Shown here one piece after another: positions 34,801 to 37,800 of a stretch of DNA of 47,442 bases. Made by a program: the position numbers. This DNA is from a virus. Taxonomy: Duplodnaviria > Heunggongvirae > Uroviricota > Caudoviricetes. The DNA lies in the IMG/VR virus record IMGVR_UViG_2913112809_000004, positions 1 to 47,442 of that record; one strand, 5' to 3'. Position 1 is the first letter of the stretch. Every line of letters starts with the position of its first letter.

Positions 34801-37800
34801 AGTGTTAATGCTTGAGCAGACAGTAAAAAACATCAATTCGCGCTTTGGCTGGCGCAACACCCGTAAGCTTCTTGGTTCATCACTGGGTGTAACAGCCCAA
34901 GGATTACCCCTTTTTATTGAACGTGTAAATAGTGTAGTTCAGCATAATCCCGACCTAAAAGACAGGATCGACGATTTCTGGAAAGGTTTAATTTTTAGCG
35001 GGAATCGATTACTTTCTATTTATAAAATCACCGATGAAGACGTAGCAAAATTACAAACAATTTTCACAAATCAGAAAAAGGACAATAGCCCCTTCTCAGA
35101 AAAATACCCAACGCCTTTATCCAGAGAGGAGCTGTTAGTTGCTGATACTGAGCTGCATTTTGCTGAACTACGTCAAGATATCATTCGTGACAAACAAATT
35201 GACACCGCTGTTTTTTTATCCAAAGCGTATTACACTGAAGTGATAGAACTTGACCCAACACATCTTAGCGATGCGGGTATGGAATTACGTGCTAATGGCG
35301 GAGAAATAAAATGCAAAACACGCCAAGTCACGCAATGCTTTAATACCATCATGCTAATGCCTGCAGAAAAAATATTAATTCTTACGATTGATTTATCTAT
35401 CCTTCCAAGAAGTGAATCACAGCCTCAACAATACCTTGTGGCTAAATTTATAAAAGAAGAAGCTGGCGTTATTTTAAACAATCCTCTTGAATTATTTGGT
35501 TCAATACAAGATCTTTACGAAAAAGTAGATGGCAGAATTTCTCATGTATCTTTTATCACCTCAGATGGCAATACAAGTTCTTTAAAACTCAAACCAAGTC
35601 AAAAGTGTTTGCGTCAAGATGTTTACCATCATAGTGGAGAGTCCGCAAGCCCAATACTGACAAAGTTTAAGTTGGGAAAAGTTTGGGATTTACCACAAAA
35701 TTCTTCACATATTTTATCAGTAGAGTTAATATTACCAGGGAAAAGGACGATGCTTGATAATCCTAGAATTAGGTTGCATGAAGCAATTGCGAAGAACTGT
35801 AACAATATTGATTCGATTATATTTATTGTTGAAAAAATATTGGATTCTGTTAAGTCCTGTGAAGAGAAAAGAAGAGCGAAATCATCAGGCCATAAATGAA
35901 AAAGAGTATATATCACGACATTATCACGCAAATAGAGCAGGATTTTAATGATCCTGCTCGCCGTGTGTGTCGTGATCTTTTTCTTTTTCTGGTTAGTAAA
36001 GATGCTAAAAATATCAATCACTTTACATACAAAACTCTTATCAATGGTTTGACCTATCTAACTGACACGAAAGATGACTATATCCTGCTAATAAAAGCAA
36101 CAGATTATTTATCTAGCTATAAAGCACATCTATTGGATATGCATTTTCAATACATTGATAATTTAACGGAAGAACCAATCCCAGTTGAAGATGATCTTAT
36201 TTCCTATGCTTTAGACACAGGAAGTTTTTACCATCCAGAAACTGGCGAATTGGTTGAAAATTTTAGCCAGTATCTTTATCCATACTTTACTCCTTCGAGT
36301 CTTTTGGAGAGTCTGCATGAGTGATGTAAACATCTGTACTGCAGATCTTCAATCATTAATTAGAATGGATCCTGAATTTAGGGGAATGGTTCAAAGAAAA
36401 TTAGCTGCAGACAAAAATATTTTTGTAAAGCAACTCTATGAAGATTTAGACGACGCTATTCAGAATTTAGAAAATGACAAACACTTCTATCAAGATGCCA
36501 AGTGGGGAGAGGACGAGCTAACAGCGTCGATCAAAAATTTCCTGAAAGGTAGGTTTTATGATGTTGAACATGATACTCAACATGGCGGTCACGTTGATTT
36601 ATTAGTTAAACATCAATTCGGAAAATTCGAATGGATTGGTGAAGCAAAATTATGGAGAGGCCCCAAGTCTATTCACAATGGCTGGATTCAGCTAACCGAA
36701 CGTTACGGCACGGGTACGTCACGTGACGATCATGGAGGAATTCTAATTTATATAAAGTCTGACAAATCAGCAGTAAAATTCAATGAATGGAAAGAATTTT
36801 TCTCTACGACTGTTTCGGACGCAGAAATTGAAGCGGAAGGCTCTCCCCTCCGCTTTAAGAGTATCTCAAAGCATCCAGCAACAGCGCTTCCATATCATGT
36901 AAGACACATGGGAGTATCCTTATACCATTACACTGGTAAAAAATCCGCAGACTCTTAACTGGTAATTGCTATATATCCGCTCAGAAAACCTAAGGCTTTT
37001 TGCAATCTTTTACGAATTGTTCCATCTGAACATCCTTGTTGCTTTGCAATAGCACGAAGAGATAAACCAATCACGAAATGAGCAACAATTAACTCATATT
37101 CTTGTTGCTTATATCTTTCTAACCTAAGGATACTAATGTCAATCACTCGCCCTTCATCATTGCTGCACTGACGACGTAATTTTTTGCCATGAGGAAAAAT
37201 ATTTTTTATATTTATCAGCTATTTCCTGCCAATATATAGAACTATTACCAGCCACAACCCAAGCCCCCCAACCGTCTAAAAGCTCACATATATCAAAATT
37301 ACTATCCATCTGATTTTTATTCTCTATTTTGAAATAACCAAGCAGCATTCTAGCCATTGTTGTTATTTCTATACTCGTAACTGATTCATAGGCATCAGGA
37401 GAAATAATTCTCCCATCACTTAATGCCCTATCACTAAGATTTGCTATTTCCAATAATCGTTCTTTCGTTATTTCCATTATTATCTCCACCGCCCTTTCGG
37501 GCGGTCTCCTTATTATTTGAGGGTACAGAACCCCCTCCTGTTAAGGATTTAATAAAAATCACTTCTGATTTAATTTTTCAGTGTTTTGTTGTCAGGTGGT
37601 TTATAGCCTTTATTCTTCGGCCTTATTTCTCAGCCATACACAAACCGGGCCATCTTCGGTGTCATGTATCGAACCAATAAACCATCCATCGCCCTCTGGT
37701 CGTTCCGGTTCCCATGCAGAAATATCAGCATCACACGCATCAAGGTCAGCACATCCTTCGTCTCTGAAGCAGAGGACGCATTGAAGATTATTTTCCGCCA

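What the first reader, a model, noticed from the sequence alone, without database searches (positions are those of the whole stretch)
34802..36958. AT-rich three-gene operon with a PD-(D/E)xK-like third gene: candidate novel defense or abortive-infection system
Three translationally coupled genes (365, 142 and 214 aa; ATGA-type overlaps) lie on the strand opposite to all neighbours and are much more AT-rich than the phage backbone, suggesting separate acquisition. Gene 3 carries GHVDLLVKH...EWIGEAK, the D...E-x-K spacing of PD-(D/E)xK nucleases; genes 1 and 2 show no motif I recognise. It is flanked by a Hok-like toxin, a 9-bp tandem repeat and a frameshifted second Q gene. This is the best candidate in the window for an undescribed system.
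Basis: inference. Interest (0 to 1): 0.8.

Follow-up and report, generated by a model that had tools for sequence, protein, structure and literature searches.

The report
Prophage trio: RdgC-like protein plus nuclease
A conserved but unnamed three-gene cassette carried by prophages and other mobile elements encodes a protein with the fold of the DNA-encircling protein RdgC, a small acidic protein and a restriction-enzyme-like nuclease. It is most likely an undescribed anti-phage defence system, though no phenotype has been shown.

Summary
The three overlapping + strand genes are real: g1 34808-35899, g2 35896-36324, g3 36317-36958. They have 37% GC against 47% for the window and lie between hok/sok and a split Q gene.

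- **g3** folds confidently as a BamHI/OkrAI-like PD-(D/E)xK nuclease. E65, D94, E109, K111 and Q125 are kept in every relative read.
- **g2** is a small acidic soluble protein of no known fold.

None of the three matches any Pfam, NCBIfam or PADLOC family, and every source calls them hypothetical.

The trio is a conserved unit. The same ~360/~140/~210 aa array recurs down to about 20% identity in lambdoid prophages (Q-lysis gap), beside a P2-type replication (gpA) gene, in an integrase island and beside a resolvase. A deep g1 profile finds a g3 relative within 3 kb in 24 of 27 carrier genera, in five phyla.

The closest described system is GAPS4 (ring-forming subunit plus PD-(D/E)xK subunit). 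Membership was tested and not met.

Best reading: a new three-component DNA-sensing nuclease defence or exclusion system. Function is inferred, not shown.

The parts
34633..34807 (+). Upstream non-coding region between the hok/sok locus and g1. It is the presumed promoter and leader, with Shine-Dalgarno AAGGAAG at about 34795-34801.
   Evidence: Read directly from the sequence. The sok RNA ends at 34632. Contigs from RNA libraries that carry the operon begin at 34607-34639 in two studies, which is a weak hint only. No promoter was mapped.
34808..35899 (+). g1, 363 aa (365 aa from the alternative GTG at 34802): RdgC-fold protein with an N-terminal helical SAP-like domain (residues ~2-63). Proposed DNA-binding or sensor subunit.
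   Evidence: AlphaFold model pLDDT 85. Foldseek hits RdgC 2owy/2owl at E 8e-6, prob 1.0. VIA-align gives RdgC Z 9.5 over 226 residues, then Iml3, Chl4 and CENP-N. Phage RdgC proteins match in BFVD. The family has 512 representative clusters. No Pfam, NCBIfam or PADLOC match.
35896..36324 (+). g2, 142 aa: small acidic (pI 4.7) soluble protein of unknown fold. Proposed adaptor or regulator.
   Evidence: ATGA overlap with g1. No hydrophobic segment. Homologous middle genes occur in all trios examined; invariant residues are C25, L32, L80, P114, G117 and F131. hhalign to the L025 middle gene gives 97.4%. No family or PDB match.
36317..36958 (+). g3, 213 aa: PD-(D/E)xK (BamHI/OkrAI-like) nuclease-fold protein. 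Proposed effector, with putative catalytic residues E65, D94, E109, K111 and Q125.
   Evidence: Model pLDDT 91. VIA-align gives OkrAI Z 9.3, BglII/BamHI/BstYI Z 8.8 and McrC Z 8.1. Invariant residues are listed. The same residues are kept in all carriers read across genera.

Best explanation
The three genes form one operon encoding a three-component, nuclease-based conflict system. The prophage most likely carries it to exclude other phages (defence or abortive infection).

Proposed mechanism; every step is inferred unless marked shown.
1. g1 dimerises like RdgC into a ring or horseshoe. With its N-terminal SAP-like helical domain it binds double-stranded DNA, DNA ends or replication intermediates of an incoming phage.
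2. g3 is the Mg2+-dependent PD-(D/E)xK DNase effector. Shown: the fold and the conserved E65/D94/E109-x-K111/Q125 site.
3. The small acidic g2 couples g3 to g1 or restrains it until DNA is sensed.
4. Activation leads to cleavage of phage DNA, and possibly host DNA, which protects the lysogen population.

Also shown: the gene order, the coupling by overlapping codons, and the co-inheritance of the three families across phyla and across mobile-element types.
For: - **g3 fold.** pLDDT 91. All top structural matches are PD-(D/E)xK enzymes: OkrAI Z 9.3, BglII/BamHI/BstYI 8.8, McrC 8.1, then CdiA-CT, HamA, NucC and Can2.
- **g3 active site.** E65, D94, E109, K111 and Q125 are invariant in 25 homologues and in every carrier read across genera.
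- **g1 fold.** RdgC is the top match in Foldseek PDB (E 8e-6, prob 1.0) and in VIA-align (Z 8.8 and 9.5 over 220-226 residues). Phage RdgC proteins match in BFVD. The known RdgC-related Iml3, Chl4 and CENP-N folds follow.
- **Precedent for this fold.** RdgC and its structural relative lambda RexA are non-specific DNA binders, and RexA is an exclusion protein (PMC11077077).
- **Conserved trio.** Arrays of 365/140/211, 353/145/208, 351/151/224, 385/129/222, 407/126/240, 365/141/206, 362/141/208 and 371/164/234 aa were found. Homology of each position was confirmed.
- **Linkage.** With a deep g1 profile, a g3 relative lies within 3 kb in <3 of 3, 12 of 12 and 6 of 6 carriers (score bands <20, 20-39, 40-59%). 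It lies there in 0 at random places.
- **Context.** The trio sits in accessory slots of different mobile elements. These are the Q-holin gap of Salmonella and E. coli lambdoid prophages, next to a P2-type gpA gene, an integrase/AlpA island by rpoD in Vibrio and beside a resolvase. Neighbours are often toxin-antitoxin genes: hok/sok here, BrnTA and HipA elsewhere.
- **Acquisition.** Low GC and sparse distribution: 14 of 5426 E. coli genomes for this allele, and 27 to 54 of 36145 genera.
- **Transcription.** Contigs from RNA-seq libraries of four studies bridge all three genes in one piece. This is weak evidence of co-transcription in lysogens.
- **Analogy.** GAPS4, a validated system, pairs a ring-forming DNA-binding subunit with a PD-(D/E)xK subunit (PMC13748975).
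Against: - No phenotype of any kind exists for these genes.
- No match to any of 5027 PADLOC models except a marginal PDC-S54 hit for g3 (E 0.0016), so defence is argued only from fold and context.
- PD-(D/E)xK folds and RdgC folds also serve recombination and repair.
- Ring formation, DNA binding, complex formation and nuclease activity are untested.
- The role of g2 is a guess.
- The RNA evidence comes from assembled contigs. These cannot give strand or level and do not exclude DNA carry-over.
Confidence: 0.6

Rival explanations
1. It is an addiction or toxin-antitoxin-like module that stabilises the prophage or island. g3 would be a DNase toxin, acidic g2 its protein antitoxin, and g1 a DNA-binding regulator or accessory. 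It would have no dedicated anti-phage role.
For: A small acidic protein is encoded immediately upstream of, and overlapping, a nuclease gene. The cassette sits next to other toxin-antitoxin loci: hok/sok, BrnTA and HipA. It occurs on several kinds of mobile element.
Against: The largest and best-conserved gene, g1, is linked to g3 in nearly all carriers. A two-part toxin-antitoxin pair does not need it. Many toxin-antitoxin modules act in defence anyway, so this rival overlaps the main explanation.
Confidence: 0.15
2. It is a phage DNA-metabolism module used in the carrier phage's own lytic cycle. An RdgC-like modulator of RecA or recombination would work with a nuclease, as in the RdgC and exonuclease genes of lytic phages.
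For: The best BFVD matches of g1 are phage proteins annotated RdgC, recombination-associated protein or exonuclease. E. coli RdgC modulates RecA (cited in PMC11077077).
Against: - The cassette is transcribed against the phage's early and late operons and is compositionally foreign.
- It also occurs outside prophages, in an integrase island and in a resolvase context.
- No isolated phage genome among 50,697 records carries it, apart from a weak partial Acinetobacter match.
- There is no sequence-level relation to RdgC.
- g3 resembles type II restriction enzymes and McrC rather than recombination exonucleases.
Confidence: 0.12
3. It is a counter-defence or host-takeover module. g1 would sequester DNA ends or block RecA/RecBCD, as Gam-like or Abc-like functions do, and g3 would degrade host or competitor DNA for the benefit of the phage.
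For: g1 has the RdgC fold, and RdgC inhibits RecA functions (cited in PMC11077077). The cassette lies in the nin/Q region, where lambdoid phages carry accessory genes.
Against: The orientation and the RNA-library contigs suggest expression from its own promoter in lysogens rather than from the lytic operons (weak). It is present on non-phage islands.
Confidence: 0.08
4. It is a highly divergent three-gene form of the GAPS4 defence system.
For: The ESM Atlas feature search placed GapS4b-family clusters among the neighbours of g1 (rank 11, score 0.92, 198 shared features). The logic is similar: a partner modelled as a ring, plus a PD-(D/E)xK subunit.
Against: - The NCBIfam models NF047934 and NF047933 recognise a genuine E. 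coli GAPS4 pair. They match neither g1, nor 52 diverse g1 relatives, nor g3.
- hhalign of the g1 profile against GapS4b gives probability 0.2%. The g3 profile against GapS4a gives 3.6%.
- The nuclease motif differs (H-x-D...E-x-K against HGxD...SxK), the gene order is different, and there is an extra gene.
Confidence: 0.03

Closest known systems
GAPS4 anti-phage system (GapS4a + GapS4b; PMC13748975)
   Same: It pairs a PD-(D/E)xK subunit with a ~370-aa partner that is modelled as a dimeric ring around dsDNA. It is carried by mobile elements (GMT island, P2 Z-region, and a P4-like satellite in L031). The sensor-effector logic is proposed to respond to aberrant or linear DNA.
   Different: - GAPS4 has two genes, not three, and the order is nuclease first.
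- The nuclease motif is HGxD-SxK at the N-terminus, against H92-x-D94...E109-x-K111 mid-protein here.
- No detectable sequence or profile homology.
- There is no counterpart of g2.
RdgC (E. coli recombination-associated DNA-binding ring; PDB 2OWL/2OWY) and phage RdgC-like proteins
   Same: This is the best structural match of g1 residues ~62-355, covering essentially the whole RdgC chain (Z 9.5, 226 residues; Foldseek prob 1.0).
   Different: - About 7-9% identity and no Pfam RdgC match.
- g1 has an extra N-terminal helical (FAN1 SAP-like) domain.
- g1 has a strongly conserved, low-confidence loop (D273-x-Y-H276-H-G-G279-E).
- RdgC is a stand-alone housekeeping gene, whereas g1 is locked to a nuclease gene.
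Lambda RexA / RexAB exclusion system (PMC11077077)
   Same: RexA is a prophage-encoded exclusion protein with an RdgC-related fold that binds DNA non-specifically. It is expressed from the prophage.
   Different: RexA's partner RexB is a membrane protein. g2 has no hydrophobic segment, and the effector here is a nuclease. RexA was not among the listed structural matches of g1.
BamHI/BglII/OkrAI/BstYI type II restriction endonucleases and McrC
   Same: They share the fold and the active-site layout (helix E, D, E-x-K) with g3 (Z 8.1-9.3).
   Different: Identity is 9-14%. There is no methyltransferase or McrB-like GTPase nearby. g3 is linked instead to the g1 and g2 families.
Shedu and Hachiman (PD-(D/E)xK defence nucleases activated by DNA ends or aberrant DNA)
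   Same: The effector superfamily is the same, and so is the proposed principle of sensing DNA state. HamA appears among the g3 matches (Z 6.2).
   Different: There is no DUF4263 domain or helicase partner, and no PADLOC match.

Membership tests
PD-(D/E)xK nuclease superfamily (g3) | Restriction-endonuclease-like alpha/beta core fold | tested here: met
   Model pLDDT 91. Every VIA-align match at Z of 8 or more is a PD-(D/E)xK enzyme: OkrAI 9.3, BglII/BamHI/BstYI 8.8 and McrC 8.1. The Foldseek list is led by McrC and OkrAI, but weakly.
PD-(D/E)xK nuclease superfamily (g3) | Conserved acidic and lysine catalytic motif D...(D/E)-x-K, with the upstream helix glutamate | tested here: met
   E65, D94, E109 and K111 (plus Q125) are invariant in 25 homologues. 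In carriers across genera they read E 27/27, D 42/42, E 36/36 and K 42/42.
PD-(D/E)xK nuclease superfamily (g3) | Metal-dependent phosphodiesterase activity | not testable with these tools
   Needs a biochemical assay.
GAPS4 defence system | GapS4b family membership of the large subunit (NCBIfam NF047934) | tested here: not met
   The model scores 371 bits on a genuine GapS4b. It gives nothing for g1 or for 52 g1 relatives. hhalign probability is 0.2%.
GAPS4 defence system | GapS4a family membership of the nuclease subunit, with an N-terminal HGxD-SxK motif | tested here: not met
   NF047933 hits genuine GapS4a but not g3. hhalign gives 3.6%. The g3 motif is H-x-D...E-A-K at residues 92-111.
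GAPS4 defence system | Two-gene a-b architecture, or a fusion of the two | tested here: not met
   There are three genes, ordered large - small - nuclease, in every locus examined.
RdgC family | Sequence membership (Pfam RdgC) | tested here: not met
   No Pfam hit for g1 or for 52 relatives. The profile search of PDB sequences finds no RdgC.
RdgC family | RdgC fold (base, centre and tip arrangement) | tested here: met
   Foldseek E 8e-6, prob 1.0. VIA-align Z 8.8 and 9.5 over 220-226 of 302 residues. The high rmsd (~8 A) indicates different domain angles.
RdgC family | Ring-shaped dimer that binds DNA in its pore | not tested
RexAB exclusion system | RexA-like protein | tested here: inconclusive
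   RexA shares the RdgC fold according to PMC11077077. RexA itself was not among the listed matches of g1.
RexAB exclusion system | Membrane partner RexB | tested here: not met
   g2 is acidic and soluble, with a maximal 19-residue Kyte-Doolittle value of 0.57.
Any defence system in PADLOC-DB v2.0.0 | Match of a component to a system model | tested here: not met
   g1 and g2 have no match. g3 has only PDC-S54 at E 0.0016 over 60 residues. The 52 g1 relatives have none.

The most novel reading that the evidence does not exclude
The trio defines a new family of anti-phage systems. In it an RdgC-fold ring, a fold so far tied to recombination control and to lambda RexA, acts as the DNA sensor that licenses a BamHI-like nuclease through a dedicated small adaptor. 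This would make 'DNA-encircling ring plus PD-(D/E)xK nuclease' a recurrent immune design that arose independently of GAPS4.
Probability: 0.45. Interest if true: 0.75.

Novelty: new variant of a known kind. Interest (0 to 1): 0.62.

Why it matters
If the trio defends, it adds a system built from three protein families that have no annotation anywhere. The g1 family alone has 512 representative clusters. It would also give the RdgC fold a second immune role beside RexA, whose mechanism is a 70-year-old open problem. It would provide a tractable E. coli model, because the cassette is present in EPEC E2348/69 and in common Salmonella prophages. That model could show how a DNA ring or clamp tells foreign or aberrant DNA from self and hands it to a nuclease. 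The cassette also sits in the Q-lysis slot. From general knowledge, not tested here, that is where Stx phages carry their toxin genes. This underlines that slot as a cargo site worth mining.

Tried and rejected
- **Complex prediction** of g1 + g3 + g2 with g2 as partner returned no verdict. The score was 0.79, but a control with g1 replaced scored 0.70. It is not used as evidence either way.
- **ESM Atlas lead 'GapS4b family' for g1** was rejected after testing. I located a genuine gapS4a/gapS4b pair (L031). NCBIfam and hhalign show no relation.
- **Fishing for GAPS4 in P2 Z-regions of E. coli genomes** found other cargo only.
- **The search for related loci in species-representative genomes** found one locus only, because its patterns reach close relatives only.
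- **Megablast and tblastn against 50,697 phage records** gave nothing except a weak partial Acinetobacter match.
- **Profile searches of PDB sequences** with g1, g2 and g3 alignments gave chance-level hits only.
- **First count_across_genera direction** (g3 as query, shallow g1 profile as neighbour) read 0 of 24, <3 of 18 and <3 of 9. I attribute this to the shallow g1 profile, since the reverse count with the deep profile read 12 of 12 and 6 of 6.
- **Literature searches** for the RefSeq accessions, for RdgC-like defence and for KwaB-RdgC found nothing relevant. The accessions are absent from the DefensePredictor supplements.
- **RNA-library contigs.** In runs X1 and X2 the stretches flanking the operon had little or no cover. 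X6 and X12 contigs run on into the Q region. Absence of cover in contigs proves nothing and no DNA run was laid, so transcript ends and levels are not claimed.
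Full report
**Observation**

The window is a 47.4-kb virus record. On its + strand, against all immediate neighbours, lie three overlapping ORFs.
- g1: the ORF listing start is GTG 34802. The ATG at 34808 follows an AAGGAAG Shine-Dalgarno sequence, matches the N-termini of homologues and matches the 363-aa RefSeq model in EPEC E2348/69.
- g2: 35896-36324, overlapping g1 by ATGA.
- g3: it starts at ATG 36317 and overlaps g2 by 8 nt, giving 213 aa.

The operon has 37.0% GC against 47.0% for the window.

- A Hok/gef toxin gene with its sok RNA (Rfam).
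- A perfect 9-bp repeat, x5.6.
- A Q-family antiterminator split into two ORFs.

**What the proteins are**

None of the three has a Pfam or NCBIfam match, and the only PADLOC hit is marginal (PDC-S54 for g3, E 0.0016). PHROGs holds each as a family of unknown function. Every public source calls them hypothetical.

*g3.* An AlphaFold model built on 25 homologues is confident (pLDDT 91). An exhaustive structural comparison gives only restriction-endonuclease-fold proteins at the top. These are OkrAI (Z 9.3), BglII, BamHI and BstYI (8.8) and McrC (8.1). CdiA-CT DNases, HamA, NucC and Can2 follow. E65, D94, E109, K111 and Q125 are invariant in the alignment and in every carrier read in a census of 36,145 genera.

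*g1.* The model has pLDDT 85.
- Foldseek: RdgC, the toroidal DNA-binding protein, at E 8e-6 and probability 1.0.
- VIA-align: RdgC Z 8.8 to 9.5 over 220-226 residues, spanning the whole RdgC chain.
- BFVD: phage RdgC-like proteins.
- The next matches (Iml3, Chl4, CENP-L/N) are the folds that the lambda RexA structure paper groups with RdgC and RexA as non-specific DNA binders (PMC11077077).
- Residues 2-63 form a separate helical domain resembling the FAN1 SAP region (Z 6.9).
- A strongly conserved loop (D273-x-Y-H276-H-G-G279-E) is modelled with low confidence.
- At sequence level there is no link to RdgC.

*g2.* It is acidic (pI 4.7) and soluble, with no detectable relative of known structure.

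**Is the trio a unit?**

Yes. Neighbourhoods of progressively more distant homologues all show the same order and sizes, usually with overlapping genes.

| Context | Sizes (aa) |
|---|---|
| Salmonella and a second E. coli lineage, between Q and the holin of lambdoid prophages | 365/140/211 |
| Enterobacter | 367/140/211 |
| Convergent with a P2-type gpA gene | 353/145/208 |
| Vibrio parahaemolyticus, integrase/AlpA island next to rpoD | 351/151/224 |
| After an XRE-type regulator | 385/129/222 |
| Another prophage, near HipA | 407/126/240 |
| Beside a resolvase | 365/141/206 |
| Metagenomic, picked blind from the weak end of the g1 family | 362/141/208 and 371/164/234 |

Profile comparisons confirm that each position holds the same family.

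An exhaustive HMM search shows that the g1 family has 512 representative clusters. With a deep g1 profile, 27 of 36,145 genera carry it, in five phyla. A g3 relative lies within 3 kb in <3 of 3, 12 of 12 and 6 of 6 carriers by score band, against 0 at random sites.

This allele occurs in 14 of 5,426 complete E. coli genomes.

Contigs assembled from RNA-seq libraries of four studies bridge all three genes. That is weak support for co-transcription in lysogens.

**Comparison with known systems**

The nearest described system is GAPS4. It has a PD-(D/E)xK subunit and a partner modelled as a ring around dsDNA, it is triggered by DNA damage, and it is carried by mobile elements (PMC13748975). A language-model search also pointed at GapS4b.

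I tested membership directly. I located a genuine gapS4a/gapS4b pair in a P4-like satellite of an E. coli genome. The NCBIfam models recognise that pair. They match neither g1, nor 52 g1 relatives, nor g3. Profile comparison is at noise level. Motif, gene order and gene number also differ.

The trio is therefore not GAPS4, though it may work in a similar way. It is not RexAB either, since there is no membrane partner.

**Most likely mechanism and rivals**

I favour a three-component DNA-sensing nuclease system used by the mobile element to exclude phages (confidence about 0.6).
- An RdgC-like g1 dimer binds or encircles DNA.
- g3 cuts.
- g2 couples or restrains.

Only the folds, the active site and the genetic linkage are shown. 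Complex formation, DNA binding, cleavage, the trigger and any protective phenotype are inferred.

The rivals are:
- an addiction or toxin-antitoxin module (0.15);
- a phage recombination or DNA-metabolism module (0.12);
- a counter-defence or takeover function (0.08);
- a very divergent GAPS4 (0.03).

The opposite orientation, the foreign composition, the presence on non-phage islands and the absence from isolated lytic phage genomes argue against a role in the phage's own replication.

**Novelty and verdict**

No paper in the searchable library mentions these accessions or an RdgC-like defence component. I rate it a new variant of a known kind: a nuclease-based defence candidate built from three unannotated families with a new architecture. 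It is a good, testable candidate and not yet a demonstrated system.

Noticed in passing
window 37140-37230 (- strand), A-run at 37203-37208: The 'frameshift' that splits the Q-family antiterminator lies at a run of six A. RNA-library contigs of E2348/69-like strains (X6, X12) lack one base at 37202. So does a low-depth contig (2.9) of the strain identical to the window. The split may be a real +1 mutation, an assembly error or slippage in the homopolymer. In E2348/69 the gene is intact.
   Followed up: partly
window 34305-34632 (- strand): There is a complete hok/sok type I toxin-antitoxin locus directly upstream of the operon: Pfam HOK_GEF 1e-19 and Rfam sok 97 bits. Short contigs over 34406-34707 carry by far the highest word depth in run X1.
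   Followed up: partly
window 34087-34136: A perfect 9-bp tandem repeat AACAAATAC x5.6 lies in an AT-rich gap beyond the 3' end of hok. On the - strand it reads as a (LYL)n stretch inside a 40-aa ORF (34047-34169). No function is apparent.
   Followed up: no
window 32185-32856 (- strand): There is a second, intact Q-like gene (DUF1133 plus a weak Phage_antitermQ match) downstream of the cassette. The prophage therefore carries two antiterminator-type genes, as E2348/69 does.
   Followed up: no
P0040, P0042, P0048 (distant g3 homologues); L019 6001-6723: Several distant g3 relatives end in Lys/Ala-rich tails that hit the histone H1-like HC2 family. This hints that the nuclease subunit itself contacts DNA in those lineages.
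   Followed up: no
L017 532-2804: In this lineage the g1 position is occupied by two ORFs (286 + 109 aa) ahead of the 135- and 226-aa genes. That is either a split or a frameshifted g1. The trio sits next to a BrnT/BrnA toxin-antitoxin pair.
   Followed up: no
g1 residues 273-284 (window ~35624-35659): The most conserved stretch of g1 (D273, H276 and G279 are invariant or nearly so across 52 relatives) is the only segment modelled with pLDDT below 50. It could be a flexible functional loop.
   Followed up: no
L031 37005-39029 (NZ_CP048604.1): A genuine gapS4a/gapS4b pair sits between the integrase and the psu/ogr-delta genes of a P4-like satellite at tRNA-Sec in E. coli PapRG-06-3. This is a further mobile-element context for GAPS4.
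   Followed up: partly
PMC13092281, supplementary file 11: A DefensePredictor supplementary table lists 'recombination-associated protein RdgC' among scored protein names. I did not establish what the score means.
   Followed up: no
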